Assembly (NCBI GenBank): GCA_964016885.1
Contig: OZ024742.1
Coordinates: 267,964,001-268,028,000, forward strand
From: Eledone cirrhosa
Taxonomy: Eukaryota
Length of the DNA: 64,000 nt
Direction: 5' to 3'
In this document: positions 25,121 to 63,488 of the stretch, in pieces
Layout: every line of letters starts with the position of its first letter
Position numbering within the stretch: position 1 is the first letter of the stretch
Translations under genes and position numbers: made by a program
The notes under the pieces: model-generated
What the model was told of the DNA's origin: nothing
Databases searched by the model: none
Seen by the model: the letters and a program-made list of their open reading frames with translations, nothing else

Positions 25121-25264
25121 ATAAAAGAGAAAACACAAGTAAACATTAAAAAAAGGATTGTATCCAGGTACGACAGTTTCATTGGTAAGCGCAACCTTAT
25201 ATAGCTATACTGCAAATAGCAGCCACTCAATTATAATTGTTGTTCACCTCCAAATTTTCAAAAT

Positions 25265-25440
25265 AATTTTTCTTATTTAGGCACAAGGCCAGCAATTATC
25301 CAGGACATTACTGGTACTTTATTTTATCGACCCCGTAAGGATGACAGGCAAAGTTAACCTCGGCGGGATTTGAACTCAGACTGCAAAGGGACGTAACTAT
25401 GCTAGAAAACATGGCGTCCAACCCTCTACCGATAGTGCCA
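25265..25440 (-). mobile_element. tRNA-derived SINE
   Basis: Same family as 33358-33543. Confidence 0.8.
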
Positions 25441-33357: not shown

Positions 33358-33543
33358 GCCGGTTAATTGGCAGTATCGGTAGAGGGTCCGACGCCAGCTT
33401 TGACGCATAGAGTTACGGCCCTTGCCATTGTGAGTTCAAATCCCGCCGACGTTAATTTTGTCTTTCCTCCTTACGGGGTCGATAAAATAAAACACCAGTA
33501 ATACACTGGTGTGATTGCTGGTCTTGTGCCGAAAGTAGAAACA
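33358..33543 (+). mobile_element. tRNA-derived SINE with 13-bp TSD
   Basis: A-box tggcagtatcggtag, B-box gagttcaaatccc; TSD attatttctgaag at 33345-33357 and 33544-33556. Confidence 0.85.
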
Positions 33544-33545
33544 AT

Positions 33546-33676
33546 TATTTCTGAAGACGGCGGGTAGGGAAGACGTTGGTATATTTTCTTACTTTGATAA
33601 TTTGTAATATATTTTACATAGATCACTAATAGAATGAACATACGGAGAACTATCCCCCCGAAAAGATCGTAAGATA
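33546..33676 (+). ncRNA. Type I hammerhead with ~100-nt helix II
   Basis: tattt CTGAAGA cggcgggtag...ctatcccccc GAA a-agatcg-t a agata. Confidence 0.7.
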
Positions 33677-35210: not shown

Positions 35211-35444
35211 AATAAACCTTTCAAGGATTTACACAAATCCAGCCTACTGTCATTTCATTATAATATTTAACTCCGTAATAGCACCACCAACTACAAAAAC
35301 AAAGACCGTTGAACTGCTTTACGTTGAGTACTCTCTATATTATTACATTGCGATTGACCATACGGAATTGACCAGCTCTATCCAGTGGTGAACCTCAAAC
35401 CTGAATAAATAATGCTCCTGAAATGTTGAGCACGTCCAAATGTA

Positions 35445-35632
35445 ATAATTGTTTCTACGTTTGGCACAAGGCCAGTAATTACCCAGTGCATTACTGGTAC
35501 TTTATTTTATCGACCCCGTAAGGATGAAAGGCAAAGTTAACCTCGGCGGGATTTGAACTCAGAATGGCAAGGGCCGTAACTCTATACGTCAAAGCATGGC
35601 GTACGACCCCCTCCCAATACTGCCAATCCACA
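35445..35632 (-). mobile_element. tRNA-derived SINE nested in the HHR element
   Basis: Same family as 33358-33543. Confidence 0.85.
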
Positions 35633-38221: not shown

Positions 38222-38883
38222 ATATCCAAAATTAATTAAATTAAATTAAATTAAGGGAGTCATGTCCGAGACATGCGCCATATCCACCGTAGAATAAGCC
38301 CAAAGATTCCAATGAATAGATCCGAGTATTTTATATCAACTAGAAATTGATTGACATATATATATATTTAAAATGAATGCATGAAACAATCACGGGATAA
38401 TTTGTAAAGTGTGTAATCACGCATAGCTAGGTAAGTAACTAGTTAAAGTTTAAGTAGAGCTTCAAATATAATCTTTTAAAAATTGATTAATCTTCCTCGT
38501 ATATATTTCTTTAAAGAAATATATTTCACCATTAATCCGTAAAGTTAGAGTAGTCAAATCTTGAATTTTCAGCAAAGGAGAAGATTTAACTTTATGTGTT
38601 TACACATGGAATGCAAATCTGCGAGTGAACCATCGCGCGTGTTGCAATTCTAAAACTACTAACAACATGCTAGCGTCATCCTAGTGGCATGAATAGTGTG
38701 ATTGACAGCTATAAATAACAGCCGAGTCCATTCAACTGATTTAGCTCTACCATTAAAGAGCCGTGTATATATCCAAAATTAATTAAATTAAATTAAATTA
38801 AGGCAGTCATGTCCGAGACATGCGCCATATCTACCGTACAATAAACTCAAAGATTCCAATGAATAGATCCGAGCATATTATAT

Positions 38884-39004: not shown

Positions 39005-41489
39005 TAGTAATAATAATAAATTTGAAGACTAAAATCCAAAGAGGGCTCGATAAGCATAAATATATATCTAATATATAAGAGCCGTAGAGCAAATATTTAT
39101 TAAAATAATAGATTAAAGTTTAAGCAAAGAATCGCTGATTTCACCCTTAATGGGATCTTCTGAATCTAACAAAGTCAATCTGTGAACGCAGAAGTAAATA
39201 TTTCAAAAAACGTTGCAACCGGAGGAAGTCAGGAAGACGATACTTTGGTTCGTGGAAACGTTCCTTGGCAAAGACGAATATAACGGGAAAAAAACGAATA
39301 TAATCCGTTATTATATGGAGCGGTGAAAAACAATTACACGCAAAGACAAAACCACGTTTATGGTATAAAAGAAGTAGTAGACTAATATTCTATTAGGTGG
39401 TTCATAGAGACGTTCTCTGGCAATGAACGGGAAAAAACGAAGATAATACGTCATATGTGGAGCGGGGAGAACAATTGCACGCAAAGACAAAACCACGTAA
39501 ATGGTATAACTGAAGTCGTAGACTAAAATTCTAACTAGGAAAACGAATGATTCTCGGCTTCAGAGTTAAGAATAAAGTAAATAAAATACAGAGGTAATTG
39601 AAATTAAATAAATACATACACGCATCCATATACGTACATACACAATCATACGCGAACACGCTCGCAATAGGTATACAAATACACGCACGTCCACAAAACA
39701 AATCACCTGCACGCACATACAGAACCCACGCAACGCCTGTACCCGCACGTATAAGAATGTATACACCAAATACACATAAGAATATACTAGAAGAAAAAAT
39801 ATATATATATGTGCGTGTGTGTGCGTGAATACATATAATTAAATAAACGTATATAAATAAATAAATACGTATATAACAAGCGCACACACATACTTACATG
39901 TAAATACACATATGTTCGGAGACGCACGTCAACCAAAACACAAAGTACACATATACCCACACCCTACATTCGTACGAACCCGCATACTCACACAGACGCA
40001 AAACTCACGTATACACAACCAATAGCATATGTACCAGAATATATAATATATACGCCATAACATATACAATCAAATATACGTACGTGAAAGTATACGTACC
40101 TTCACAAAACATACAGGTAATATATACTTACCTATACAAATAAATAATGGTATAAACATAACATATACTTAGCTACCACATCAAGATGTAAAAAAAATCC
40201 GCGTATAGTTCGTACTATCCGTTAGGGTATAATGTGGGGCTGTAATACAGGAACGTTTTGAGTGGTCTTTGGCGTAGTGTATTTCCAGGGCCTCAGCGGC
40301 GTAGAGGGCACATGGTCTTTTATTTCCGTTATACGATCTAGCCCTAGCTAGGATCTCCCATTGTAACTTATATTGGGTGTGGTTGTCTTGTAGACTCCCG
40401 ATATAAGCTGAAAGTGACGTCATATTCCTTCTTGAAGAGTTACAAAAAGAATGAGTATGCATGTAAAGATGCTGCTTGAATCTATTGGCGGTTAACCCTA
40501 TGTGGGCCCTACGGGACGTGGGTGTTTAATCTTACATTTGTAGACAATGTTACTAGAGATGCATTTCCCGGATAGGGGGTAGTCAACCCGATTCCTACAA
40601 TTACAGTTAGTACTAACGACAGGGTTGCACGTGTTCCTACGGCTAGGTAGTTTAGCTAAATTTGAAGCTGTGATGCTATGTGCAAGGTTAGGAGTCGTAG
40701 AGTAAGACTTTTTAATCATATTTTTATTTAAAATGTTACTATATTTATGTGTAGGAGGAAAATGCTTCATAATAAGGGAGAGAAAGATCATAGCGAATGG
40801 TGTGGCCATCTCCATATTATATGGTGGGTTATATCATATAATGCCTCGGGATCTATTTCTTCTATGTCTATTCTCGTACTCTGTATATGCTACCTTATTG
40901 ACAAATACGCGCCGAGCAAGAGCTTCATTGTAATAAGTGGAATGGTCGTTGAAAATATGCTCGTTAGTAGATAGACGGGAAAGCCTCAAAGAAACGTTTC
41001 CAACCAGGTTCTTGGTTATGCTGGCAGGATGGTTAGAATGTTTACTTATTTAATTAAGCGTATCATTCGGCTTTCTATACGGGTAATGCAAGCCATTCGA
41101 TAAATTGAGGGTAACGTCGAGGTAATTAACGACCTAGAGGTTGGCCGCAACCTGTATGGAGAGGTTGAAGCCTTTAAAGAAAGCTATGAGTTCTTTTCTG
41201 AACCTCTCGCAAGCAGGTGGGCCGCACTTAGTCATGGTCAAAAGACCATCATCACGGTACAAACCACCGCCCACGTTTGGGAATTCTTCCTTGATAGAGA
41301 AAAGAAGGAAAAGGCCGATAAGATCAGTAACCTCCGCAGAATCGCTGGCGCCCATACTCACGTCGAATGGAGTATTATTAGATTTTTTAATCCAAATAGA
41401 GTCGTCGAAATTAATCACCGACTTACGGGCATTGAGGGTGACATCAACTTCGAAATCGTTAACCACTGTGAGTGTTTTAGCGAAATTGT

Positions 41490-41490
<1 letters not shown>
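39005..41490 (-). mobile_element. Naiad-like PLE family A, 5'-truncated (RT + GIY-YIG, disrupted)
   Basis: FDVSMGASDSAEVTDLIGL, GLYRDDGL, CNCRNR..PLSGKC...VYKC, LQWEILARA. Confidence 0.9.
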
Positions 41491-43215
<1,725 letters not shown>

Positions 43216-44158
43216 TATATATAAGATTTATATATATAACATTTATATATATATATATATATAAAACAAAGGAATTGTGGTAAGGAACCAGATGGACCAT
43301 AACGCACCAGAGTACTCAATACTTAGAGTAGTAGAGTGAGAAATAGGAAAAAGTATGACCCCGACGGCAGAGCTCAAGCCGTTTTGACGGCTATTTCTGG
43401 ACTAAATTTGAATTTTTAGCCTGGTGAATAAATAGCCGAACTTGTCAAGGGGGTACTTCTTACATGAGAAGATTGTAGTTGTTAAAGTTTGGTTAAAATT
43501 TGTTGTAAACACAAATAAGTCTATCATGGCATTTGGTGGGAGGTAGGGGTGGCTGAACTTGCCTGTAGAACAATAGGGGAGTGAATGGAGCGGACAAGCG
43601 TTGAAAGTGATATGTATACAGCATATTCTAAGGATAGTGTATGAAGTGGAGGAGGGAGGTTATAGAATAGGTAAATCGAATGAGAGTAGGAGACAATAAA
43701 ACATAATAGAAAGAAAATATATAAAATTAGATAGTGAGAAATGAATAAAACAAATCACAATGCTATCTTATAATTATTCGTTAATAAGTTGAGAATAGAA
43801 AAAACATTTGTAGAAATTGAGTAGTAGTAGAACTGATACAAAATTAAAGGTGTTTAACACGTCTGCTATAAGTAGTTAGTAAACCGTATTCGGCCAATTC
43901 TATCTTAAAATTACAGGAATGGGGGGAACTGATGCTACAGAGGCCCGATGGGCTGATCGGGTTAGGCGAAAGAGGAAAAACTGACGAGGAAGAAAATAGG
44001 GGGTGGAAGGAAGTGATAGGATGAGACAGGGGGAAGAAGAAGACAAAGAATAAAAGAAAAGAAAAGAGATATATCTACCTATGTAAGCTGGGGTTTCCCC
44101 TAACTTATTCGGCAAGTGTGTGTGTGCGTGTGGGGGGGGGGGGGGTATCAGCCCTTGT

Positions 44159-46311
44159 CTACCCACCCGAGTCGTTATGTGGTTTGAGGGCGAGGTAAGT
44201 CCTACGCAATCTGTGTTTGCATGAGGTTACCAGTTCGCCTTTCTTGTTTAGGAGTTGGTCCTTCGAAAACAGCATTTGTAATGTTTCCTCCGAGCATCAG
44301 TTACACGGACGGCGTCTTCCCGTGTAAGAGTTAGCTCTGTACAGTAAGCTCCAAGTGAGATTGTAGGTTATATTATTATCTTGGAGGTCCCAAATGTGGC
44401 CCGAAAGTGTAGTTGCATGTCACCGGACCGGGTTTCGGAAAGTATGTCGGTGTTGGTAGAGCCGGGTCTTGAAGTCACACGCGGTTAATCCTATGTAAGC
44501 TTTGTTGGGGGTGTCCGTCCTCACGTTGCACTGGTAGCTCACGTCACGTTGTAGGCATTTGTTGTTGAGGGGGAACGTAGATCTATCAAGGAATTTACAC
44601 CTCCTGGTCGGCCCTCCACTGATGTCTACGTTATTTCTTCCATAGGGGTTGAGTTTTTTTGTTGTTTGAGGAGACTATGTTTTGTGTGAAGTTAGGTGTG
44701 GAGCTGTAGGAGAGATTTATGGTGTTTTTGTTGATTATGTTGTGGTAGCGGTGTTGTAGTGGGAAGTGTTTTACGTGGATTCTAAAGAAGATTTTCCTGA
44801 TAGGTGTTGGGACCTCGGCATTATGGGGAGGATTGAACCGCGTTACGTTGAGTGAGCGGCGGTGTCGCCTGCTGGTTCCGCCAATGGAAGCTGGATAAAA
44901 GGATATTTCCTCCCGGAAGCCACTCCGCTTGAGGGTCTGGTTGTAATGAGGCGCCTGATCGTCGAATATCTGCTCATTAGCGGACAAACGAGATATGCGG
45001 AAGGACATGTTTTTAACCACGTTATTGGTGATGTTTCTAGGATGGTTAGAGCGGCGGTGGCTGTAGTGCAGGTTGTCGTTTGGTTTCTTGTATGGGTAGT
45101 ACAGATCGTTTTCGAGGTTAAGGGTAATGTCCAGGAAATTAACTCGGGTTAGGGACGTTTGTAGGGTGATTTTAAATCCCCAGTCCCGGGAGAAGTGGAT
45201 TAGTTGTTTACGGACCCGGTCTGTACGTCTGGGGTTGTACCCTTTGAGGGTGAGGGGCCCATCATCCCGGTACAATGCACCGCCAAATGTGGGATACATT
45301 TCGGGGAGTTTAAATAGTAGGAATAATCCTATAAGATCTGTGACCTCGGCCGAATCCGTAGCGCCCATACTGACGTCGAAGGGGGAGACGGGAAACTCTT
45401 TATCCACTTGGAGTTGTCGGAAAGTAGGACTGTCTTCCTGGCGTGGAGAAAGATATTTCTTTCCTGGTCAGTGATGAGTGTGAGTGTTTCGGCAAGGTCC
45501 AAGGCGGCCGTAAGGAGCGCTAAGGTAATATATGCATAGTAACTCTCTATGTCAAACTGGATGAATTTTGTGTCTCGTTTGTCCTCCATATTCCTGAACC
45601 ATGAGATTTCTTCCTGGGTGCTGACCCATAGGCTAAGTCTCACGTTTTGCTTAACTTTTGGTATAACTCGGTCTAGGATCTTTTTACTGATTCTCCCTAT
45701 CTCCAATTTCGTTGAGTTTATAAGCCTAATGGATGTTTTGCGGACGAAGTCGGAATTGTGGTCCTTCAGTGTGAAGTATGGAGTCCGTGGGTCTAGGGTA
45801 CAGTGCGGTCGGCGACCCCGAGGCTGGAGGTAATTTGTTGTCCATCTCAATTTATGTCCTCGATAATTGAATGGTTAGCCTTTTTATAGGTGGCGATTAG
45901 GCTGCTCTTGATCAGTGAGTGGTATCTGTCAGGGTTGACGAAGTAGAGGTTTCCGATTTTGTCCGAGTGCACCATAATGTCGTTGGTGTTTTCATACTAT
46001 GTTATTTTGCTACGGAGTTGTTGTAGGAATCTGTTGTGTCTGCGTTTCAATTTAATGCTCTTTACCAGGTGGAACATGTCATTCTCGAAGGGTGAGAGCA
46101 TACGGTTCAGAGGGGGAGATTTGTAGGTATTGAATCCGAATCTCTCCTTGGTGTCGAAGTGCTGATTGTCGCGGTATCTATCGTAGAAAAAAGTTCTCCA
46201 TCTTAGTGTTTTCGCAAAAAGGTCGATTTATTGCGTGAGCATCCGAAGGTAAAGTTTTCTCGGTGGAACTGGAATGTTCTTGGTGGAGAAGTCGATGTTG
46301 TGTTTTGGCAT
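44159..46311 (-). pseudogene. PLE RT-GIY-YIG polyprotein, ~2.15 kb, with stops and frameshifts
   Basis: MPKHNIDFSTKNIP, FIQFDIESYY, DVSMGATDSAEV, LYRDDG, FLDITL, FNPP, WSL..RANSYTGRRRPC. Confidence 0.9.
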
Positions 46312-46496
46312 CGTGCGGGTGAAGAAACTTGAGCTGGGTGGAAAAATCGGGATATGGGGTGGTAGAGTCGGAAAGTGCTCTACTACAGAGATAGGAGCTA
46401 AATAACAAAGGCATTGTGGTAAGGAACCAGATGGACCATAACGCACCAGAGTACTCAATACTTAGGGAAGTAGAATGGTAAATAGGAAAAAGTATG

Positions 46497-46593
46497 ACCC
46501 AGACGGCAGAGTTCAATCCGTTTCGACGTCTATTTCTGGACTAAATTAGAATGTTTAGCCTGGTGAATAAATAGCCGAACTTGTCAAGGGGGT
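46497..46593 (-). ncRNA. Type I hammerhead, U3-A8 core (family C; copies at 43358-43454 and 57911-58006)
   Basis: Composite of the copies: cccc TTGACAA g-tt-cggctattt...aaatagccg-t-c GAA a-cggc-ttgagctct-gccg-t c gggg. Confidence 0.8.
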
Positions 46594-47769
46594 ACTGCCT
46601 TATATGGGAAGATTGTAGTTGTCAAGAGGAATGGTTAAAATGTGTTGTAAACACAAATAACTCTATCATGTCATTTGGTGGGAGGTAGGGTGGCTGAACT
46701 TGTTTGTAGAACAATAGGGGTGTGAGTGGAGCGGTCAAGCTTTGAAAGTGATATGTATACAGCAGATTCTAAGGATAGTGTATGAAGTGGACGAGGGAGG
46801 TTATAGAATAGGTAAATTGAATGAGAGTAGGAGACAATAAAAGATAATAGAAAGAAATATATAAAATTAGATAGTGAGAAATCACAATGCTATCTTATAA
46901 TTACAGGTTAATAAGTTGAGAATAGAAAAGAAACTTGTAGAAATTGAGTAGTACCAGAACTGATACAAAATGAAAGGGGTTTAACACGTCTGCTATAAGT
47001 AGTTAGTAAACCGTATTCGGCCAATTCTATCTTAAAATTACAGGGGTGGGGGAACTGATGCTACAGAGACCCGATGGCCTGATAGGGGTAGGCGAAAGCG
47101 GAAAAGCAGACGAGGAAGAAAATAGGAGGTGGAAGGAAGTGATAGGATGCGACAGGGGGAAGAAAAAGACAAAGAGGAAAAGAAAATAACACAAAAGAGA
47201 TACATCTACTTAAGTAAGCTGGGGTTTTCCCCTAACTTATTCTGCAAGTGTGTCTGGGGGGGGGTTATCAGCCCTTGTCTACCCACCAGGGTCGTTATGG
47301 GGTTTGAGGGCGAGGTAAGTCCTACGCAATCTGTGTTTGCATGCGGTTACCAGTTCGTCTTTCTTTATTAGGAGTTGGTCCTTCGAAAACAGCATTTGTA
47401 ATGTTTCCTCCGAGCATAAGTTACACGGACGGCGTCCTCCCGTGTAGGAGTTAGCTCTGGACAGTAAGCTCCAAGTGAGATTGTAGGTTATATTATTATC
47501 TTGGAGGTCCCAAATGTGGCCCGAAAGTGTAGTGGCATGTCGCCGGACCGGGATTCGGAAAGTATGTCGGTGGTGGTAGAGCTGGGTCTTGAAGTCACAC
47601 GCGGTTAATCCTATATTAGCTTTGTTGGAGATGTCCGTCCTCACGTTGCACTGGTAGATCACGTTATGCTCTCGGCACTTGTTGTTGAGGGGGCTCGTAG
47701 ATCTATCAGGGTAGTAACACTTCCTGGTCGGCTCTCCACTGAGGTGTGTATATATATATATATATATAT

Positions 47770-48420
47770 ATCATCTTTTATATCATTTTCTTTATTTGTT
47801 TAGTTGTATTTATAATACTTGAATGTTTTTCTAGTTCTAAGGTTTCATGGGATAACTAATTCCTGTCTTTTATTTAATAGAATGTTTTTCGATGTAGTAA
47901 TTTCAAAAATTTTTTGGGAACATAGTCCACTCTCCTTTATATTGCCCTGATAAGAAAGGGCTCTTTTGAGAATCTTCCAAGGTAGGTTATAATTAATTTT
48001 CTTCTTTTTACAATTATTAACTACTGCCGCTAAAGAAGTGGATTTATCTAATCTTGTGTTTCGAAAACTGTGTGTGTGTGCATATAATCTCTATTTAAAC
48101 GGATTAGATGTGGATCCAATATAGGATTGATTAGAGTCCTTAGTGGTAATTATACATTTATACACTGTACTATTAATTAAGCAATTTCTATTGAAGGGGC
48201 AATTCCTTTTTTCTCTACAACTACAACCGTTTGTACATAGGGTTTCAGATGTGCATGCTATATTCCTAATAATAGTGCTAGTATTTGTATTTATATTTTT
48301 ATATGAGAGAGAAGGCTTTGCAGTTTGGTGGTTTGCCAATATTTTTCATTTGTTAATATTTTGAATAATATTAAAAACTTCAGGAAAACTTACTTGTTGA
48401 CTGCTTCTAATCTATTGTAA
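47770..48420 (-). mobile_element. AT-rich Naiad-like GIY-YIG fragment (family D)
   Basis: CSCREKRNCPFNRNCLINSTVYKC...YIGSTSNPFK. Confidence 0.8.
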
Positions 48421-49727
48421 AATTGTATTCATTGAGTAATCAACGAACCATACTAATCTTTGGTTATATATATATATATACAATGATATTAAGTAAATGG
48501 AAACTATATTTATAAAATCTAAATCAGTTATAAACATATATGTCAGATTTCCAACAAATTAAATACTCCTTCTACTTAACGCACCAGATTACTCAATACT
48601 TAGGGTAGTAGAGTGGGTCAAACATTTTCCTATGTATAAATATATATATATATACAATATATTAATAAATGGAAGCTATATTTATAAGACCATAATTAAT
48701 TATTATATATATTTCAAGGGCGACCAAGGTAAATTATGGTTCGCTTTCATCAAATAAAATACAGATTTGTTTTATAAATAAATATTGACATACCCGAAAA
48801 AAGACAACCTCAACGGTTGAAATTCGCTGGATAGTGGAGACACTTGAGGGTGATACAAATTAGTGAGGGAGTATGTAAATGAGCGTCGGAAAAATTGAAA
48901 AAAAACAACGGTTTATTTAAATTAAACTGTTGGAAGAAAATAGATGTAATAGGGAGATATACAAGATAGATGTAAAAAGGAGAGAGACAAAAAATTGAGA
49001 GGGAGAGAGATAGAGAATAGATAAAGAGAATAGAGAGAGAAAAAGAGATATAGAAGAAAAAGATAAAAGATACAATATTGAGAGAGAGTGAAGTAAAAAA
49101 CAAATAATTGAGATGGAGAGAGAAAGAAACAAATAATTGAGATGGAGAGCGAAAGAAAAAAGTATTGTGCGGGAGAGAGAAAAGAATGTTGAAAAAATAT
49201 TGGAAAAAGAGGGAGAAAGATTTGTGAGAGGGGGGAGGGAGATGAAAGAGAAAGAGAAAGATTGGCGAGGTGAGAGAAGAAATACATTTATTTAGATGAG
49301 TGTTCAGAATGTAAACATATTATTCGTTATGTTGTGTTTATATTACTTATAAAGATAAAGTTAATAAATTAAGTTAAATTATTGATAAGAAAACTTTACA
49401 AAAGAGTATTGTTATAATTTAGTTAAAAATTTAACCAGAAATCTAATTAAAATTTAATTAGAATTTAATTAAAATTTAAATAATTACTATAAGATATATT
49501 ACAAAAAGATGTATTTAAAATGTATTAAGATGTATTAATACTATATAGGTTTAGATGGGTTGTTTATGTTATAGGTTATAAATTATTTGAATGTATAATA
49601 ATTTGCATTGGAAAAAAAAACAGGTATAGTTTAATTGATTAAAGTACTTTACTAACTTATTGAGTTCTTTATATCAGTTATAAACATTTTTAAGGTTGTT
49701 GAATCCCAAAAAATTAAATATAACCTA

Positions 49728-49792
<65 letters not shown>

Positions 49793-49798
<6 letters not shown>

Positions 49799-50993
49799 GA
49801 CGTAAAATAAGAAAATTATAAAAATTTACTTACTAAAATTTCACTCCAACTAATTAGTTTTTGAAAGGGAATAAACATGGTTTCCGATTGGAATAACATG
49901 GAGAAATATCCTTTCGTCATCAGGGAGATCTGTTCTCTGCTAAGTTCCCAGGCAAAGCGTGGACACAGGGTACTTATACAAAAATAATTCAGTGGATGGA
50001 AAACGGCAAGCGAGGACTAAATTCCAGGACATTGAAAAAATCACTGCCTACTTAGTCGGTGGCGAATTCAAAAGAATCAATCACTTGACATCGAGGTCAA
50101 TCAGTGAGGAGTGGGGGTGCTAATAAGACAGTAGCCTGGCTATTACTATGAAGCATAGCAGTAGTTTTGGCAAATTTTTGCTCAACAAAATAATGTGGAG
50201 ATAATTATAAAGAATTAGTATATCTACCAACATATATATACAGATGTATACCTATGCTAGCAAATATATAGGTTTTGTCTTAGTAACTTTGTGATTCAAT
50301 GCAAGGGGATGGAGAACAATTATACAATTATATGAAAGACGTAAAATAAGAAAATTATAAAAATTTACTTACTTACTAACATTTCACTCCAACTAATTAG
50401 TTTCTGAAAGGGAATAAACATGGTTCCCGATTGGAACAACATGGAGAAATATCCTTTCGTCATCAGGGAGATCTGTTCTCTGCGAAGTTCCCAGGCAAAG
50501 CGTGGACACAGGGAACTTATACAAAAATAATTCAGTGGATGGAAAAAAGCAAGCGAGGACTAAATTCCAGGACTAAATTCCATGTCACGTGATTGATTCT
50601 TTTGAATTCGCCACCGACTAAGTAGGCAATGATTTTTTCAATGTCCTCGAATTTAGTCCTCGCTTGCTTTTTTCCATCCACTGAATTATTTTTGTATAAG
50701 TTCCCTGTGTCCACGCTTTGCCTGGGAACTTAGCAGAGAACAGATCTCCCTGATGACAAAAGGATATTTCTCCATGTTGTTCCAATCGGAAACCATGTTT
50801 ATTCCCTTTCAAAAACTAAATAGTTGGAGTGAAATTTTAGTAAGTAAGTAAATTTTTATAATTTTCTTATTTTACGTCTTTCATATAATTGTTCTGCATC
50901 CCCTTGCATTGAACCACAAAGTTACTAAGACAAAACCTATATATTTGCTAGCATAGGTATACATCTGTATATATATGTTGGTAGATATACTAA

Positions 50994-50995
<2 letters not shown>
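49793..50995. repeat. Two direct copies and one inverted copy of a non-coding HHR-bearing repeat
   Basis: 49793-50030 repeats at 50330-50570; 50581-50995 is the reverse complement. Confidence 0.88.
50746..50829 (+). ncRNA. Putative type I hammerhead with irregular helix III (copies at 49844-49927 and 50387-50470, minus)
   Basis: Consensus ctcc CTGATGA cga-aa-gga...tcc-aa-tcg GAA a-c...g-t t ggag. Confidence 0.6.
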
Positions 50996-51844
<849 letters not shown>

Positions 51845-51846
<2 letters not shown>

Positions 51847-53813
51847 GAAAACGAAAAATCAGAGATGCATCGGAACTCAATATATTGTGCGACAATTGTT
51901 TCCCCGACGAACAGCTCGAGGTGAGATCCATGTGTAGATCTACCTGACTCTAGATTCGCAGGTTCCTCGGACACGACTATTGATTTCGGATCATATCCTT
52001 TTTCTGGGGTTTTCTGGCCTACAAGCCTCTATCGCCCACCTTCATCCGCTTTGCGCGTCCTTGGTTTGGTCACTGGTTAGTGACTTCATAATTATTCTGA
52101 CCACTGTAGCAGCCCATGACCGTCAGGGCGTGAGCTGTCACTTACCCACTGACTCGTCGGCAAAATTACTGCTGTTTGTCAGCTCACACGCCCACTCGCC
52201 CACATACACCGAGATACTTACAGGTACCACAGGATATTATACCGCAACACGGTGAAGTTCTCCTTCTCCACCGTACCTAACATGGCAGACTACATGGCCA
52301 AAACCAACGCGGTGAAGTTGGGGAATCACGACCGTCAACAGCAACGGGTGACTGAGGTTCACGCGAGGCACGGAGGGCCCCTTACAGGCAGAGTCTCCAA
52401 CTATACTCCGATCACCGCGGCGGCCGCCATGCCCACGGAATACGGTGTAATCGAATGCCGGGTGGAACCGAGTGGCAGAGGGGGACCCCCCGCACCGACA
52501 GAATAGGACTCAGAGAATCGGGGGAGTGCCGTGGTAGATCAAGGGCCCAGCGTTGGAAACGAGCAACATGACGACCGAACTTGCAACTGCAGAGCGGGCA
52601 CACAATGCCCACTGCAGGATCTATGCCTAACGAAGGACCTAGTATATAAATGTGTGGTTAACACGCACATCACCAAGCGCACCTACATCGGCGCAACATC
52701 TACGACCTTTATATCGAGGATGTAAAATCACACAAACGCTTTCAAAGACCGGAGAAAGAGACACTCCACTAGGCTGGCGGACCTAATATGTGACTTGAAA
52801 TACAACGGTAACCCGTATGATCTCAACTGTAGTATCGTTCAACATGCAAATGCATGTTCGGCTGGAAACAGGAAGTGTAGGCTATGCCTATCCGAGGCCA
52901 TGGAGATAGTCACATAGACGGATGATGCGGTGAACCTGAAATCGGAGATTATCAATCCGTGCAGACACCAGAGAAGGTGCACATTCTCTGCATGGACGCA
53001 ACCGAACAGCCCAAGCTAAACGCATGCGGGGAAGCGGACGCCGGTCCGAGTGGCGGCGTGGGTCCAAGGGATCAGAAACCATACCTTGCTGACTATTTAT
53101 GCCTTCTGGGTAAGTCGACGTAACCTATGTTGCCTGTCAAACTCGGCACGTCATCCTAGGCAACAACATCGCATGAGCCGGGACACGGTGGCTCAACCTC
53201 CACGGATATTCAGTCACGTACCATACATCATTAAGGCACTCTATCTCACCCACAGTGACATATTCCTTTATGACCTGTTCACGCACTCCCTGCATGTGTA
53301 TCTTTTCAGTGGTATGTGCATATTCTCCACGCATTCCGTTGCCTAACACCCCATGTATTTTTCCATGTACAGAACAATATATATCTTTGTATACTTTTCT
53401 TATATAATTCAGATGTATGTATTTTTTTAATATAATTTTTTAATATATTTTTTTATATATATATTTTTTATATATTCTGCATACATTATTTTATATATCA
53501 TGCATGCATTTACTATATACCGTCTGGGCCTACCTTTACATTAGTACCATGAGCTCTCCATATGTAGCCTTACTTGAGGTGTCTATACATGGATTTATCC
53601 ACGTTGACAGCATAATATCAACTCCGTCTGCATGTACAACCCAACGTGTGTCTTTATATGCTTTCCTTGCATGTATTTTTTGTACATTTTTTTATGCGTG
53701 TGTAGATGTGTGTACATACATATGTGTCGGAATATATGTGCGAGTCAGTGTGTGTGTGTGTGCGTGTATGCACACGGGCAAGGGGTAAACATGTATTTGG
53801 GTATGTGTGTGTG

Positions 53814-53848
<35 letters not shown>

Positions 53849-54592
53849 ATGTGTGTCTTTATGTGTATATGCGTGTGAGCGTGTTTATGTATATGTATAT
53901 ATGTGTGTAGACGAATGTGTGTGCGCGCGTGTGGGTGGTGGTTTATATATATATATATATATATGTATGTGTATGTGTGTATGTATGCATATGTATGTGT
54001 ATATATATCTGAGTGTATATATATCTGTATGTGTATGTATATCTACGGATGCGTATGTGTCTGTGTGTGCAAGTATATATACGGGTGCGTGTCTGTGTGT
54101 ATCCGCGCGTATATATAAACGCGCGCGTATGCGTGTGTGCCTCTCTGTGTGCATGTATGCGTATATTTGTCTGACTATTTCTGTGTGAACTTAAGCACAC
54201 AAGCTACTCTGTATGTATCTGTCAGTATCTCTGTGCGTGTGAGTGGGAGTGTGCGAGTGGAAGTGTGAGCTAACAAACAGCAGTAAATTTGCAGACGCGG
54301 CAGTGGGTGAGTGACAGTTCACGCCATGACTGTCAGCGGGTTGTTACAAGTGGTCAGAATAATGATGACGTCACTAACCAGTGACCAACCAGGTGGTCGA
54401 TATAGGCTTGTAGGGCCAGAAAACCCCAGAAAGAGGATATGATCCGAAATCAATAGTCGTGTCAGAGCAACCTGCGAATCTAGAATCAGGTAGAACCACT
54501 CATGGATCGCAGCGCAAACTGTTCGCAGGGGAAACAATCGTAACACACAATAAATTGAGTTCCGATGCATCCCTGATTTTTCGTTTTCCATT
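51845..54592 (+). mobile_element. Naiad-like PLE family E: GIY-YIG 3' fragment with inverted terminal repeats
   Basis: CNCRAGTQCPLQDLCL..LVYKC...YIGATS; 51845-52200 is the reverse complement of ~54245-54592. Confidence 0.85.
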
Positions 54593-54669
54593 CTATAAAA
54601 CTATGCTCCGCCGGAGCGTAGAGTACTCAATCGGCATACCGCCTATAGAAGTATCATAGCTACCATTAG

Positions 54670-54719
<50 letters not shown>

Positions 54720-54899
54720 GCATGCATGTAAGAGATATATCTGAGAGTGTATATATAAATAGATAATCATGTAATTATTCTCGTGTGGGTATGTGCCAAT
54801 AGCAACTATGTGCATTAAATGATAGAAAATATATAAATAGACGTTTATTACAACATTTATTTCAACCGAAAATAGACATTTAGATGAAGAGATATATTG

Positions 54900-55085
54900 T
54901 TTCTACTTTAGGCACAAGGCCAGCAATTACCCAGTGCATTACTGGTACTTTATTGTATCGACCTCGTAATGATGAAAGGCAAAGTAAATTTGGGCGGGAT
55001 TTGAACTCAGACCGTAAAGGGACGTAACTATGTTGGAAAGCATGGCGTCCGACTCTCTACCGATACTACCAATCCACCGCCTATA
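54900..55085 (-). mobile_element. tRNA-derived SINE with 13-bp TSD
   Basis: TSD aagagatatattg at 54887-54899 and 55086-55098. Confidence 0.85.
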
Positions 55086-55162
55086 AAGAGATATATTGAC
55101 AAACAAATAGTCTTATAGATAGACGCAGAGATATTCCGATAATTAGATAGACTTATACGTAC

Positions 55163-55650
<488 letters not shown>

Positions 55651-55793
55651 ATATATATATATATACGTACGGTAAATATTGATGCAATCAATTCAAGCAA
55701 TCTACGTACTTTTTTCCACTTAGGAATGATGGAGTATATTGAGAATAAGAATCATTCGAAGTAGTATCAGATGTTAAAGTCCTTATTGATAAG

Positions 55794-55868
55794 GCTGTGA
55801 TACATATTTCAATGACAACAGTGGCCCTGTGATTCCGACTAACCAGTGCCATGATCTCATCAGAGAGC
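55794..55868 (-). ncRNA. Type I hammerhead
   Basis: gctct CTGATGA gat-c-atggca-c-tggtt...ggcca-c-tgttgt-c-att GAA a-tatgta-t c acagc. Confidence 0.75.
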
Positions 55869-56082
55869 TTCTTACATTATAGGGTAACGTTCTCGAGGCA
55901 ACCCAAATTAAGGCAACAAGGGAACGGACAAAAATGATGTACTTGAATTCTTCGCCCGTTGCTAGAGCTTTAACATCTGAAACTACTTCGCATCTTCTTG
56001 TTCTCTCTTTCCCTCTTTCTCTCTATATATAATCAAGAAGTACAAATCAACAGATTAGAATTTACTTCATTTATTCATAATT

Positions 56083-56141
56083 GATGTAATTTATATTTCG
56101 CTGATAACTGTTATGGAACAATTATGGCATCATCAGACACC
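56083..56141 (-). ncRNA. Type I hammerhead
   Basis: ggtgt CTGATGA tgc-c-ataattgtt-ccat-aacagttat-c-agc GAA a-tataaa-t t acatc. Confidence 0.8.
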
Positions 56142-57324
56142 TAGAAGGTAAACAAATAATAACACTTGAAGATGAAAAAAATTACTTCTGTCTTTCGATT
56201 CAGTGATATGTCCAGTACTGATACTTGGTGTTGCTTGCTCATCATAGTACCGTTGATATATGACTTAGAATATTTATCATCCCAACATCTGCACAAAGGA
56301 AATATAGGGCTACTAGCTAATAGTTAGAGGTACTTTCACCACTATATCATCAAACTATTGTGAAATCCTTAGTGATGTGATTGTCTGACATTTGCCGTCT
56401 ACTTGTTTAGGAACCAAGTCAATCCGGGAAGCTTTATGAGTAGGGGTTACCTTGGAAATCGATCGCTGTCAGATGGATTTGTTTACAGCAGCTACAATCA
56501 CAGGCTGCATTGACGATACATTATTTAGATAGGAGTGTTTCTCGGCCACAGTGACTGCAGTTAGGGGTGGCAGTTGTGATAATAGAATATAATAATCAGT
56601 TTGTAGTACAGTACACAATAGTCGAGAATCAGTGTTAAAATGTGTGAACGATAAAGTAGAAAAAAGTTAAGTAAAAATAAACATGAAGATAGATGACCAT
56701 TAAATAAACAAGGAATACATCGGAAGCGTAAAGTAAATTGTACAGAATATCAGTTAAAATACCCATACAGACAGAACAAAATGACCAGTAGAATATAGAG
56801 AATCGAACACTGCACTTCTAAAATGGCGATTCTCAATATTGGCTGCTAGCCATTTTTTCCGTCTATAGTAGTATTTTACCCGTTTATTTAAGTTTTGTCC
56901 ACACATTTTCCAGCGATTGAGAATTTCGACATTTGTGTACAAATTCGCACTCACACACATACACACACACGCGCATGCACTCACATTTACACACACATAC
57001 ACACGGACATAGACACAAACCTATATATATATACATATATATTTAAGGATATAGGTACATACATACTTACATTATATATGTGGACGGTCCCCAAAGTTGA
57101 TGTATTGTGTCAATGCTAATAATATTGAATTGCATGACAGCTATCGATTACTCACTATATAGATATTTGCTTTTATATTTTGCTCACGGAAACGATGGAT
57201 TAATTAACCCTTAAACCATTTCTCATTCGTTTCAATGTTCAACATTATATACATATTACATTTATATATTACCCACACACACACATATATAGACACATAC
57301 CGACACACACACATATACACACGC

Positions 57325-57385
<61 letters not shown>

Positions 57386-57522
57386 AATATATATATATGA
57401 TGTATGTATATAATATATATATATATATACATATACATACATTTATATATATACATATATATACATATATATATATACATATATATATATACACATATAT
57501 ATATACATATATATATATATAT

Positions 57523-57602
<80 letters not shown>

Positions 57603-57727
57603 ATATATATATATATATCTATATATATATATAAGTATCAGCCGTACTAAGAGTGAGAAATGATGCACAGATAGACACATATAGATATACATATAATGAT
57701 ACACACAAACACACACATATATATATA

Positions 57728-57799
<72 letters not shown>

Positions 57800-57896
57800 A
57801 GTAGGAATACTTTTGAAACAGCGAGTTGGTTTGAAATTATATATATATATATCACTGATGAAGGACTAACTTTATTCATATATATATATATATACA

Positions 57897-59618
57897 TAGG
57901 AAAAAGTATGACCCAAACGGCAGAGCTCAAGCGGTTTCGACGACTATTACTGGACTAAATTAGAATTTTTAGCCTGGTAAATAAATAGCCGAACTGGTCA
58001 AGGGGTTCTTCCTCATATGGGAAGATTGTAGTTGTCAAGACGATTGGTTAAAATTTGTTGTAAACACAAATAAGTCTGGCATGGCAATTGGTGGGAGGTA
58101 GGGGTGGCTGAACTTGCCTGTAGAACAATGAGGGAGTGAGTGGAGCCGGTCAAGCGTTGAAAGTGAAATCTATACTGCAGATTCTAAGGATAGTGTATGA
58201 AAAGTCGAAAAATTGTTCTGGAGAAAATGGAGGAGGAAAGTAATAGAATAGGTAAGTCAAATGAGAGTAGGAGACAATCCAAAATAATATAAAGAAATAT
58301 AAAGAAAATATATAAAATTAGATAGTGAGAAATGAATAAAAAAAAAAAAGAACTGGCTCTACCAACACCGACACACTTTCCGAAACCCGGTCCAGCGACA
58401 TGCCACTACACTTTCGCGGCACATCTGGGACCTCCAAGATAATAATATAACCTACAATCTCACTTGGAGCTCACTGTCCAGAGCTAACTCTTACACGGGA
58501 GAACGCCCTACGCGTAATTTATGCTCGGCTGAAACATTACTGTTTTATGCTATTTTCGAAGGACCACCTACTAAACAAGAAAGACGAACTGGTAACCGCA
58601 TGCAATCACAGATTGCGTAGGACTTACCTCGCCCTCAAACCCCATAACGACCCGGGTGGGTAGACAAGAGCTGATACCCTCCACTTGCCGTATAATTTAG
58701 GTGAAACCCCAGCTTACATAGGTAGATGTACCTATTTTCGTTTCCTCTATGTTGTCTTCTTCCCCAGTCTCATCCTATCACTTCCTTCCACCCCCTATCT
58801 TCTTCCTCGTCTGTTTTTCCCCTTCCGCCTACCCCGATGCAGCCCATCGGGCCTCTGTAGCCTCAATACTCCCACCCCAGAATTTTAGGATAGAATTGGC
58901 CGAATATGGTTTACTAACTATTTATAGTAGATGTGTTAGACCCCTGTAATTTAGTATCATTTTTGTTAGTACTCCAATTCTACAATTTCTATATTTCTTA
59001 TTTAGTATTTTCTATTCTCAACTTATTAACCTGTAATTGTAAGATAGCATTGGGGGAATACGCTTTACTAACTGTTTATAGCAGCTGTGTTACACCCCTG
59101 AAACGTTTGCATTATATATTTTCACTACCCACTTCTACAATTTCTTATTTAGTACTTTCCATTCTCAACTTATTAACCTTTTCTATATCTTTGGCCGTAC
59201 ATGCAACACCTACGAATTATAGCAGCTGTCTCTAGCCTCTAATGATTTTTTTAAAATGTTATATTCATTTCTCACTATCTAATTTTATATATTTTCTTTA
59301 TATTTCTTTCTATTATTTTTTATTGTCTCCTACTCTCATTTGTCTTACCTACTCTAGTACTTCCCTCCTCCATTTTCTCCAGAACAATTTTTCGACTTTT
59401 CATACACTATCCTTAGAATCTGCTGTATAGATTTCACTTTCAAAGCTTGACCGGTTCCACTCACTCCCTCATTGTTCTACAGGCAAGTTCAGCCACCCCT
59501 ACCTCCCAACAATTGCCATGCCAGACTTATTTGTGTTTACAACAAATTCTGACCAACCGTCTTGACAACTACAATCTTCCCATATAAGGAAGTACCCCGT
59601 GACAAGTTCGGTTATTTT
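57897..59618. mobile_element. PLE family C fragment: inverted pLTR (57897-58340, minus) then ORF end + pLTR (58350-59618, plus)
   Basis: Homology to 43345-44470 in both orientations. Confidence 0.85.
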
Positions 59619-59619
59619 G

Positions 59620-62600
59620 CAGCGCCTGACGGCCGGCGTCTTAAGGTTCGGTGCAGGGTGACCCGGTTTACGGTTTTCCCGCCTCATTCTTATTCCATCT
59701 GGAGTAAGAGATGTTTAAGCGGTGCGTGCAGCTTATCACTGTTTCTGCTCTGCTGTTGATGAGCTAATGGGGTACCGTTATGTTATGGTAAATCTCCATG
59801 AGGCAAAGCTCACACTTCCTCTTGAAATTGTACGGTGCTGCCCTGCCGACAATTTCCCAGTGTGTGCAGAATCTGATGTTTGAGTTTTTTAATGCTGTGA
59901 TGTAATTCGCGAGCGAAGTGTAGTGTCTTCGTTTCTTGTTTGCGAAAGAGTGGAGATGTGTTCGAAATCTATTTTGAACGGGCCAGAGGTTGGTCCTATA
60001 TAATGCTTAACGCTATTATGGCTAGTTATGGTGCACCTATAAATAACCCTATCTGTCAGGAAATTTCCCCTAAGGGGACAGCATCCCCTGTCACGACATT
60101 TCCAATTTCGGTCGCAGTCCCTTCTAGTTTCCAAGGTAAGGCTATTATTATTGCTATCTATGCTGTTACCTACGCCTCTATATCTGTCGTTAGTACCATT
60201 ATATCCCACTGCGTGCGGAGTAGTACCATTATCACTCCGCACGCTGCAGCGCATTCTGTTGTCATCGAGTGACCCGTAGGGGTCACCTGCATATTCCCCT
60301 GTCATGTCGCGGTTATGTTGGTTGCGTCTGTTTTGGCTGTTGCTAGCACTATTGGGTACTGCTAGGGAGTCGTTAAGGCCGATATGGTTGTTATCAGGTC
60401 TAGGTATATTGGTGCTAAGGTTCTGTGTTTAGGCGATCTTACTGTGATTAATTGTTCCAATGATGTCTGCTAGGTTAAGAGTAGTAGAGAAGGATATTTT
60501 TATATTGTTCCTATTAAGGATTTTCCTATATTTATGGCTGGGCGGGAAGTTATTCTCTAAGGCTTCGAAGAATATCCGGGGTATGTCGGTGGCCACACTC
60601 CGAGAGTAGGGAGGATGGAACAATAGGACATTACGGTGGCGATTCCGTGTCTTTGTATGTTTGCTAAGGGTTGTACTATCAGGGTGACGTCCTTATGCAT
60701 GTTATTGTGCTGTAGCCCGTTATGTGTCCCTTTCGCTTTGTGCTCGGGTGCACTCGGCTTCCTTCTGTTACGTTTATGTATATCAAGACGTTTGTTGGAA
60801 GGCGGATGGTAGCAGGACATCGCCTTTGTTGATCTTATAGTAGGGGAATAATTCAGGTAGGCTACAGTGGTCACCGCCACCGGAGTCGTGATTTTTATTA
60901 TGTGGTAGGCTTTCTCCACCATCGCTTGTGTGATTGACGTTGCGATTGTGTTCCTTAGTTTGATTCTCTATGCTATTATTTCTGTCTCTTTCAAAGACGC
61001 TGCGCGTTCGGTTATAGGTATGGCTTACTATTACATTAGTCTTATGAGAGGGTTGGTTTCCGAAGCCAGCATTAGGGATGTAGCAGATTCTTCGGTTAAA
61101 TCCGGCACTTAGCTAGGCCTTATTGTAGTAATCTGCCGCTTGGTTGAATATATCGTCATTGGCGGAGAGCCTCGAGATCCCATGTGAAATGCTATAAACT
61201 ATGGAATTGAGAGTCTGCTTAGGGTGGTTAGAGGCATTATTAATATAAGATATACTCTCTCCAAGCTTATGGTATGGCTTGTATAGGCCCGTACTCAACT
61301 CCAGGGTCACGTCCAGTAAGTTGACAACCTGGTGGTTGAGGTCGATAGTTACGGATAGGCCGTATGAAATGAAGAACCAGTGTATGTGCATGTTAAGGTT
61401 CTCTATCCTGCGGAGCTATGATTTCTAATGGTAAACATGGCGTCGTCTCTATATACACCTCCTTGTAGGACCGGTATCTCGTCCCTAAGTCTATGGAGGA
61501 GGTATACTCCGACCCGGTTGGTTGCTTGCGCCGAGTCGCTGGACCCCATCGTGATATCGAAGTTATCAGAACTATATCTATCTCTATTTTAGTGAGGCTA
61601 GTGTTAGATTTAGCTAAGATGAGTGCCTTATTTAAGAGTATAGGGGAGATAGAGGCGGAGTAACTATCTATCTCAAACTGGATGAACTTCAGGGTCGCTT
61701 TATTAGGCAACTCGGTGAACCAATCAATGTCCTGGTCGGCTTTGCTCCAGAGGCAGACCTTAGCTTTTCTATTGAGCTCCAGTAGTACTCTATCCAGGAT
61801 CACTTTACTAAACTAACCTATATCAGATGTAGAGGGACAAATTAATTTAATAGACGGGCTTTCATTAAAGTTACATTTGTGATCCTTAAGAGACAATCTA
61901 GGCGTCAGAGGGACATGTGGGTTTGTGTACTTATCTATATATAGGCTAGTAACTATGACCTTACCTACTCTATTTATGTCATTTAGGGTACTAATGGGTG
62001 TCTTTTTATAGTCTTTGTGTAGTTCTTTATAGTTAATTGTTTATACTTGCTCGCGTCCATCTTATACGGCTTCTTGGTTTTGTCAGAGGTGACGAAGAGG
62101 TGTGGGTCATTCTTGATCTTGGTGATGAGTGCATCTAGGGATGTTAGGAATGGATTACTGCATCGGTATTTATTCTTGAACTTAATGTTTCTGATCAGTT
62201 TCAGCAGGTCCTCCTCAAGGGAGTCTAACAAGGTGTTGTGCGGTGGGTTTCGGTATGTTTTGAAGCCGTACCTATCTTTAGGTTCTGGAAGGTTACGGGT
62301 ATTCTTATCTAGGTGGTAGGCCTTCCATCTTACTCTCCGTATAAAGGAGTTGGTGGCATATATAAGTTGTTTGAGGTATGTTTTTCTGCTGGGTAAGGGG
62401 ATACACTTGCGAGGCATGGGTAACGGCTTATTCTCCAACATGGTTACAAATAAAGTGAGATACTCTACAATAGGAGCACGGTAATATAAATATATACATA
62501 TATACATTTCGTTTCTGAATTTGTTTAGCAAGATTCTTTATCTGAAAACGTGTGTTGAAACCGATATTGTTATACTTTGGGAGGGTCAAGTTGCCAATAA

Positions 62601-63000
62601 GAAACACAGGCACCAGTTGTATTCACTTCAATTTATTATAAATTTCCGGTTGATTAGTTCCACAACCGGATGGTTGTTCATATATTGTCAAAGTTCCTTT
62701 GTATATATTTCTTTAAATAAAAAATATATTTCACCAATTAATTGGTAAATCACATTAGTCAAATCCCGGATGGTCACCAAAGGAGAAGATGCAACCATTT
62801 GTGTTTACACAGCAAATGCAAACCTGTGAATGACTCGTACCACGTGTTGCATTAAAAAAAAACACACACATCGCACAGCGTCATCCCAGTGGCGTGAATA
62901 GGATTATCGACAGCTAGAAATAGCAGCCGAAACCATTCAACTGAGTTAGCTCTACAATGAAGGGGCCGTATATATATCCAAAATTAAATTAAGGGTTGTC
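59620..63000 (-). mobile_element. Naiad-like PLE family F, near full-length disrupted ORF (~62441 to ~59700) plus 5' pLTR
   Basis: KCIPLPSRKTY...RRVRWKAY, FIQFEIDSY, LLDVTL, FHPPYS, CRDRGCCPLRGNFL...IYRC...YIG. Confidence 0.88.
62695..62784 (-). ncRNA. Type I hammerhead, G3-C8 core (family F; mutated inverted copy at ~63038-63127)
   Basis: tcctttg GTGACCA t-ccgg...ttgg-t GAA a-tatatttttt-attta-aagaaatata-t a caaagga. Confidence 0.7.
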
Positions 63001-63001
63001 A

Positions 63002-63488
63002 TGCATTTACTGTGTAAACACAGATGGTTGGATCTTCTTCTTTGGTAACCATCCGGGATTTGACTACTGTGAGTTACCGATTAATTGGTGAATTATATTT
63101 TTTATTTAAGGAAATATATACAAAGAACCTTAGCACCGATACACCTAGATCTGACTACAACTATATCGGCCTTAACGACTCCCTAGCAGCACCCAATAGT
63201 GCTGGCAACGGCCACAACAGACGCAATCAACATAACCGCGACATGACTGGGGAACATGCAGGTGCCCCGTACGGGTCACTCGACGACAACAGAAGGCGCT
63301 GCAGCGTACTACTCCGCACGCAGTGGGATATAATGGTACTAACGACAGGTATAGAGGCATAGGTAACAACATATATTTGAAGTTCTAGTTAAACTTTAAT
63401 TAGTTACACACTTTACAAATTATTGCCTGTGATTGTTTCATACGTTTATTTTATATATATATATATATGTCAATCTATTATTTCTAGT

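What the first reader, a model, noticed from the sequence alone, without database searches (positions are those of the whole stretch)
43358..62784. Three different Watson-Crick pairs at hammerhead core positions 3-8 in one locus
Seen: C3-G8 (most motifs), U3-A8 (family C UUGACAA; palindromic element UUGAAAA) and G3-C8 (family F GUGACCA), each with pairing helices I-III and lying near a pLTR end or ~190-250 nt upstream of the ORF start. Known: C3-G8 is a tertiary pair of the active fold and compensatory swaps can retain activity. Inference: these PLEs use variant cores that CUGANGA searches miss, so HHR counts in such genomes are underestimated.
Basis: partly seen in the sequence, partly recalled or inferred. 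Interest (0 to 1): 0.75.

Follow-up and report, generated by a model that had tools for sequence, protein, structure and literature searches.

The report
Three core pairs in retrotransposon hammerheads
A self-cutting RNA motif carried by jumping repeats in this animal genome uses three interchangeable base pairs at one catalytic-core position; one swap (U-A) is already published, while the G-C swap, fixed in hundreds of copies of one family, was not found described in nature and likely still cuts, though cutting is untested.

Summary
Confirmed, with corrections. The variant cores are family-level, not decay. With positions 3, 7 and 8 left free, family P gives 12,977 genome matches (first 100 all U3-A8) and family C 2,382 (83 of 100 U3-A8). 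Family F alone holds all three pairs: first 100 of 347 matches were G-C 46, C-G 33, U-A 13, mismatched 8 (37 paired expected if independent). G3-C8 is one clade (98/98; 436 matches); at least two, probably three, double swaps occurred. U3-A8 in Penelope-like element hammerheads is published (Cervera 2014), and this scan noted it often in this genome. Natural G3-C8 was not found in my searches. F also keeps two extra helices predicted to clamp stems I and II. No cleavage or expression data.

The parts
62695..62784 (-). Family F type I hammerhead, G3-C8 core (GUGACCA), helix I UCCUUUG/CAAAGGA, U·U-closed 2-3 bp helix II, 11-bp helix III, UA cleavage site; joined to another repeat just after helix I
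   Evidence: family counts
62786..62815 (-). 5' flank of F, complementary to the 5' half of loop II (extra helix A; partly decayed in this copy)
63035..63128 (+). Inverted second F copy, G3-C8 but G5A (decayed)
38491..38581 (-). Decayed copy (C3·A8) of the C3-G8 sister subfamily of F
46494..46591 (-). Family C hammerhead, U3-A8 (UUGACAA), long helix II, in the upstream pLTR about 190 nt before the ORF start
43359..43452 (-). Family C hammerhead, U3-A8, downstream pLTR; G12A in this copy
57910..58005 (-). Family C copy with U3·C8 mismatch (decayed)
59595..59620 (+). Truncated family C copy with G3·A8 (decayed)
55534..55571 (+). Family P small hammerhead, U3-A8 (UUGAAAA), palindromic helix III; right arm of a head-to-head insertion
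55426..55463 (-). Family P small hammerhead, left arm
42990..43140 (.). Second, more diverged head-to-head family P insertion, both arms U3-A8
49844..50830 (.). Three copies of a C3-G8 hammerhead family (49927 -, 50470 -, 50746 +)
51110..51152 (-). Minimal C3-G8 hammerhead (CUGAAGA), G12A in this copy
44500..46310 (-). Broken Penelope-like RT-endonuclease ORF of family C (KNIP, QFDI, VSMG, YRDD motifs across frames)
   Evidence: relatives
59890..62441 (-). Broken Penelope-like ORF (SDKT, YRDD, YIG); its own hammerhead elsewhere in the genome is UUGAGAA (U3-A8), not F

Best explanation
These are type I hammerhead motifs in the terminal repeats of Penelope-like retroelements and their ORF-less derivatives, and the tertiary pair at core positions 3 and 8 has switched among C-G, U-A and G-C in the amplifying master copies, likely because selection for self-cleavage of the element's RNA keeps the pair but not its identity. 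Shown: the variant cores are subfamily states; family F (subfamilies 5-13% apart) carries all three pairs on a tree with at least two double swaps, while U4-G5-A6, A9, GAAA and U16.1 stay fixed and helix I covaries. Inferred: the motifs cleave (by the known rescue of C3G/G8C and C3U/G8A mutants); in F two extra helices (5' flank with the first half of loop II; second half of loop II with the 3' flank) would close stems I and II into a four-way junction, prop up the 2-bp helix II and so tolerate the weaker G3-C8 pair. Selection is loose enough that a C3·A8 lineage of family C also spread.
For:: 92 of the first 100 of 347 matches are Watson-Crick in three states; permutation mean 37, maximum 54 in 10,000 (ignores relatedness). 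G3-C8 rows one clade 98/98; CUGAAGA clade 100/100 nested among U3-A8 rows; one clade for both C3-G8 subfamilies disfavoured, p-AU 0.043; helix I pair 35-134 U-A 21, C-G 15, U-G 2 of 38; helix III 98.5% paired; extra helices 96%, 87% and 96% paired, slid controls 34-45%. Position 7 varies (C, A, U; G as well in family C) as expected for N7. PMC11167929 (passages): single C3G or G8C kills a Penelope-like hammerhead, the double mutant partly restores it. PMC3088659 (sections 7, 8, 17): natural U3-A8, U10.1-U11.1 mismatch, 1-2 bp stem II and pseudoknots are all described.
Against: A C3·A8 lineage of family C: 481 matches, 93 of the first 100 CUGAGAA, 2 of 100 C3-G8, spanning two diagnostic subfamilies, 19 of 30 loci with ORF remnants. 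PMC11167929 found hammerhead cleavage not needed for insertion in vitro. The independent events in F number only two or three. The minimum-energy fold of 4 of 4 F copies is the extra helices without helix I, so they may be an off-state. The extra helices show mostly one-sided G-U changes, few true compensations, and lose inner pairs in 11-12 of 38 rows. No cleavage or expression data.
Confidence: 0.78

Rival explanations
1. Relaxed constraint: cleavage hardly matters for these elements, the core drifts in master copies, and the paired states are a few lucky founder events.
For: Amplified C3·A8 lineage; a P relative with GCAA instead of GAAA occurs 4 times in the 1 Mb sample; cleavage dispensable in vitro (PMC11167929); Naiad elements reported to spread without canonical hammerheads (10.1101/2021.04.23.441226, passages).
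Against: All five amplified F subfamilies are Watson-Crick at 3-8 while differing at both positions, and the other core positions are fixed; the C-G to G-C swap needs two transversions; helix I covaries in the same subfamilies.
Confidence: 0.15
2. The variant cores are chance mutations after insertion and the family consensus is C3-G8.
For: Individual window copies are decayed at the core (58005, 59595, 38581, 63042).
Against: 100 of 100 P rows and 83 of 100 C rows are U3-A8, and 436 genome matches are G3-C8, in searches with these positions free or named.
Confidence: 0.01
3. Family F folds as two stable hairpins (an off-state or a replication signal) and the hammerhead forms only transiently, in a dimer or with protein help; the core swaps are then selected on a rarely formed fold.
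For: Minimum-energy folds of 4 of 4 F copies, z -2.9 to -4.1, contain the extra helices and not helix I (the program cannot draw pseudoknots); PMC11167929 reports a protein-assisted Penelope-like hammerhead.
Against: Helix I strands lie in the loops of the two hairpins and stay complementary with compensation, as a kissing arrangement would need; one centroid shows helix I and III.
Confidence: 0.3

Closest known systems
Hammerheads in pLTRs of metazoan Penelope-like elements, including the U3-A8 variant of Schistosoma mansoni Cercyon elements (Cervera and De la Pena 2014, PMC4209133; parts 1-2 of 4 and supplement file 2 part 2 of 3 read)
   Same: Type I topology, pLTR location, many dispersed truncated and inverted copies, palindromic helix III in family P, U3-A8 families missed by a cuganga descriptor.
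   Different: No G3-C8 core in the text or in the Figure S3 list that I read; families C and F have a stable helix III and a long loop II, not the minimal form; three states inside one family are not reported there.
Natural core variants and pseudoknotted hammerheads (Perreault et al. 2011, PMC3088659; sections 7, 8, 17 read)
   Same: U3-A8 covariation, U10.1-U11.1 mismatch, 1-2 bp stem II and a pseudoknot between stems I and II.
   Different: G3-C8 not named in the sections read; family F has two predicted extra helices rather than one; its supplementary alignments were not seen.
Engineered C3G/G8C hammerheads (Anolis Poseidon element, PMC11167929, passages; review PMC8495972, passage)
   Same: The same G3-C8 pair; partial rescue of cleavage.
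   Different: Those are laboratory mutants; here the pair is fixed in two natural subfamilies.
Hydra clade of Penelope-like elements (Craig et al. 2021, 10.1101/2021.04.23.441226, section 11 and passages)
   Same: C-terminal GIY-YIG, DKT, CxCX5C linker, (TA)n insertion and hammerheads, seen in the ORFs linked to families C and H.
   Different: No protein tree was built; core variants are not discussed in the passages read.
Metazoan non-LTR retrozymes (PMC7229834, passages; 10.64898/2026.07.22.740005, listing and passages)
   Same: F is a mostly ORF-less unit of about 530-660 nt in partial tandem or inverted copies with one type I hammerhead.
   Different: Longer than the 170-400 nt monomers described; circular RNA not tested.

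Membership tests
Type I hammerhead ribozyme | Core U4-G5-A6, A9, G12-A13-A14-A15.1, U16.1-H17 conserved | tested here: met
   Fixed across the five F subfamilies and in C and P; some window copies are decayed.
Type I hammerhead ribozyme | Watson-Crick pair at 3-8 | tested here: met
   F 92 of 100, P 100 of 100, C 83 of 100; not met in the C3·A8 lineage of C.
Type I hammerhead ribozyme | Helices I-III with covariation | tested here: met
   F: helix I compensation, helix III 98.5% paired, helix II two near-invariant pairs only. P: helix I only 3 bp in the main subfamily.
Type I hammerhead ribozyme | [quoted passage not shown] | tested here: inconclusive
   Two extra helices predicted in F; few compensatory changes; may be an alternative fold.
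Type I hammerhead ribozyme | Match to an Rfam hammerhead model | tested here: not met
   No hammerhead family among 90 matches at E<=1; canonical C3-G8 copies in the window were missed too.
Type I hammerhead ribozyme | Self-cleavage after N17 | not testable with these tools
   Needs an in vitro assay.
Penelope-like element, Hydra clade | RT followed by GIY-YIG endonuclease with DKT and CxCX5C linker | tested here: met
   By motif: SDKT, YRDD, YIG in the window ORFs; CNCPDRSTC and AYIG in a family C locus. Pfam gave no RT or GIY-YIG hit for these pieces.
Penelope-like element, Hydra clade | pLTR in partial tandem or inverted, insertion in (TA)n | tested here: met
   Self-comparison of the window; loci.
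Penelope-like element, Hydra clade | RT phylogeny with reference clades; absence of CCHH | not tested
   No reference proteins at hand.
Autonomous Penelope-like element (families F and P) | Hammerhead repeat flanks its own ORF | tested here: not met
   ORF similarity to 8 query proteins in 1 of 29, 5 of 29 and 8 of 50 F loci and 2 of 29 P loci, against 30 of 30 C loci; a divergent partner could be missed.
Non-LTR retrozyme (family F) | Expressed as small circular RNA | not testable with these tools
   No RNA holder listed.

The most novel reading that the evidence does not exclude
Family F is a natural G3-C8 hammerhead, in a form not described before: the core is assembled from two kissing hairpins whose stems close helices I and II into a four-way junction. 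This scaffold lets the catalytic 3-8 pair cycle through C-G, G-C and U-A within one young family, and the C3·A8 lineage of family C is either a captured intermediate of such a swap or an N7-less core (CUGA-GA).
Probability: 0.3. Interest if true: 0.65.

Novelty: new variant of a known kind. Interest (0 to 1): 0.45.

Why it matters
The 3-8 pair is known from crystal structure and mutant rescue; family F offers a natural allelic series (C-G, G-C, U-A) on one scaffold, plus a natural mismatch lineage in family C. Together they make a standing question testable: whether hammerhead cleavage is under selection in Penelope-like elements at all, given that it was dispensable in vitro. For annotation, descriptors should leave 3-8 free; the gain here is about 10-20% more motifs, nearly all U3-A8.

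Tried and rejected
Rfam scan: no hammerhead hit. First strict scans missed families C and F because of long or mismatched helix II. A search with the DNA downstream of F returned a different C3-G8 family, which exposed the chimera. F as the pLTR of the window's 62441-59890 ORF: rejected. Pfam: no RT or GIY-YIG hit on the window's ORF pieces in the interval or on 6 locus proteins. Seven of the 14 U-A census hits come from one simple tandem repeat (L291) and were discounted; 2 A3-U8 hits look like chance. The root of the family C tree was not determined, so the direction U3-A8 to C3·A8 is open. Lunse et al. 2017 and Martick and Scott 2006 were not available to read.

Full report
Observation. The window lies in a 3.0 Gb animal genome, G000:C3:267964001-268028000. 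Rfam finds no hammerhead, but a structure scan with positions 3 and 8 free finds type I motifs, and motif look-up places the rest. Family C (UUGACAA, U3-A8) is at 43452 and 46591 on the minus strand, with decayed copies at 58005 (U3·C8) and 59595 (G3·A8). The palindromic family P (UUGAAAA, U3-A8) is at 55534 (+) and 55463 (-). Family F (GUGACCA, G3-C8) is at 62784 (-), with a G5A copy at 63042 (+) and a C3·A8 sister copy at 38581. C3-G8 motifs are at 49927, 50470, 50746 and 51152. Five shuffles of the interval gave 0, 0, 1, 0, 1 hits.

Family state. I searched the genome with patterns that leave positions 3, 7 and 8 free but fix U4-G5-A6, A9 and some flank; the tool lists the first 100 rows, which I tallied by hand. 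P: 12,977 matches, 100 of 100 U-A. C: 2,382 matches, 83 U-A, 15 C·A, 2 U·C. F: 347 matches, 46 G-C, 33 C-G, 13 U-A, 8 mismatched. Permuting that table gives 37 paired on average, at most 54 in 10,000; this ignores relatedness. A G3-C8 pattern gives 436 matches (control 1), 36 of the first 100 from a second subfamily, GUGAACA. Reversed-pattern controls were 0.

Family F is the main result: one family holds all three pairs. Four subfamily majorities differ at 15-38 of about 300 columns. On a tree built without columns 3, 7 and 8 (44 rows, at most 11 per subfamily, from 74 that passed the flank filter), the 22 G3-C8 rows form one clade (98/98), the CUGAAGA rows a clade (100/100) nested among U3-A8 rows, and the three CUGACGA rows lie apart and are the most diverged (median 0.119 against 0.036-0.046). 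Holding the two C3-G8 subfamilies together is disfavoured at p-AU 0.043, borderline, and I named the group after seeing the tree. At least two, probably three, double swaps occurred. On an alignment of 38 copies (38 of 43 candidates; 5 with truncations or indels dropped), helix I has a U-A/C-G/U-G pair in 21/15/2 rows, helix III is 98.5% paired, and helix II is two near-invariant C-G pairs plus a variable third behind U·U. The 100% pairing of 3-8 in that alignment is by construction, since rows were picked by core. PMC3088659 (section 8) describes natural U10.1-U11.1 and two-pair stems II.

Extra helices in F. The 5' flank of helix I is complementary to the first half of loop II (15 pairs counted, 96% and 87% paired) and the second half of loop II to the 3' flank (5 pairs, 96%); slid controls of the whole structure give 34-45%. 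Most changes are one-sided G-U; inner pairs fail in 11-12 of 38 rows. These two helices, with helix III, are the minimum-energy fold of 4 of 4 copies (z -2.9 to -4.1), leaving the helix I and II strands in two loops. By topology (my inference) helices I, II and the two extra ones would form a four-way junction, with the core assembled by loop-loop kissing; this resembles the stem I-II pseudoknot of PMC3088659 (section 7). The alternative is an off-state. That surrounding contacts decide tolerance to 3-8 swaps is recalled from Przybilski and Hammann 2007, not read.

What carries them. The window ORFs at 46310-44500 and 62441-59890 are broken Penelope-like RT-endonuclease genes by motif; a family C locus shows CNCPDRSTC and AYIG. 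DKT, CxCX5C and (TA)n insertion match the Hydra clade (10.1101/2021.04.23.441226, section 11); no protein tree was built and Pfam gave nothing. ORF similarity lies in 30 of 30 C loci but 1 of 29, 5 of 29 and 8 of 50 F loci and 2 of 29 P loci, so F and P are mostly ORF-less; F recurs at 530-660 nt spacing. F's place before the 62441 ORF is a nested insertion: none of 19 other copies of that ORF shows F in the 330 nt upstream, and those that keep their own repeat carry a small UUGAGAA hammerhead.

Results against the reading. Family C has an amplified C3·A8 lineage: 481 matches, 93 of the first 100 CUGAGAA, 5 other C·A, 2 C-G. It spans two diagnostic subfamilies and lies between two U3-A8 groups on an unrooted tree; 19 of 30 loci hold ORF remnants. 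Either a mismatch is tolerated, or G7 serves as G8 in a core lacking N7; I cannot separate these. PMC11167929 (passages) found cleavage unnecessary for insertion in vitro and dependent on protein.

Size of the undercount. In 100 evenly spaced 10-kb stretches the scan found 97 hits: C-G 68, U-A 14, G-C 0, A-U 2, other pairs 13; local shuffles gave 9 in all, none C-G or U-A. Seven U-A hits are one simple tandem repeat. The scan needs a 4-bp helix I and so misses most P copies; homology adds about 4 P, 1 C and 1 H copy, and no F. U3-A8 is thus about 10-20% of motifs and G3-C8 under 1%.

Comparison with print. PMC4209133 (parts 1-2 of 4; supplement file 2 searched and part 2 of 3 read; file 1 not held) reports U3-A8 in S. 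mansoni Penelope-like hammerheads, about 1,300 against 2,000, found exactly because the descriptor missed it. PMC3088659 reports natural U3-A8. G3-C8 appears in what I saw only as an engineered rescue (PMC11167929, PMC8495972, PMC3884650; passages). Searches for natural G3-C8 returned none, but the library lacks subscription papers; Lunse et al. 2017 on Penelope-like hammerhead variants and the Perreault alignments were not seen and may hold it. This scan's notes report U3-A8 many times in this genome, none for family F by sequence, and G3-C8 once for a phage, partly fallen on later check.

Verdict. Real, family-level core covariation in known Penelope-like hammerheads. U3-A8 is known. The G3-C8 subfamilies, the three-state series in one family, the mismatch lineage and the predicted double helix clamp are the new parts, all untested for cleavage. 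New variant of a known kind; interest 0.45.

Noticed in passing
L341-L370, L221-L229, L294: Family C lineage with core CUGAGAA (C3·A8; 481 matches, 93 of the first 100 with G7) spans two diagnostic subfamilies; position 7 varies among amplified subfamilies only with U3. Mismatch intermediate or N7-less core.
   Followed up: partly
window 62786-62815 and 62770-62740; alignment A1: Family F keeps a 15-20 bp complement between the 5' flank and loop II and a 5-7 bp complement between loop II and the 3' flank.
   Followed up: partly
L267, L268, L336: Relative of family P with helix II GCAU/AUGC (compensatory against GCAG/CUGC) and GCAA instead of GAAA, 4 copies in 1 Mb.
   Followed up: no
L202-L220: The ORF at window 62441-59890 has its own small U3-A8 hammerhead (UUGAGAA, palindromic helix III) about 290 nt upstream of the start in other copies.
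   Followed up: partly
window 62700-62600; L032-L060: Tail of another abundant C3-G8 minimal hammerhead family, joined to F at a short similar stretch; F also switches to ORF sequence at the same point in its inverted copy at 63128.
   Followed up: partly
L246, L316, L284: Two further U3-A8 families (UUGAUAA) in the evenly spaced sample.
   Followed up: no
L294:8749-9682: Tandem array of 311-nt units, each with a C3-G8 hammerhead (retrozyme-like).
   Followed up: no
window 40250-41500, 41570-42770, 52150-53150: Further broken Penelope-like ORFs of other families.
   Followed up: no
window 4814-5004, 25235-25440, 33360-33555, 35421-35632, 54888-55079: Five copies of a 190-nt SINE-like repeat; it resembles, from recall only, a cephalopod SINE.
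   Followed up: no
window 6964-7033: Well-formed C3-G8 hammerhead of the commonest family in the genome sample.
   Followed up: no
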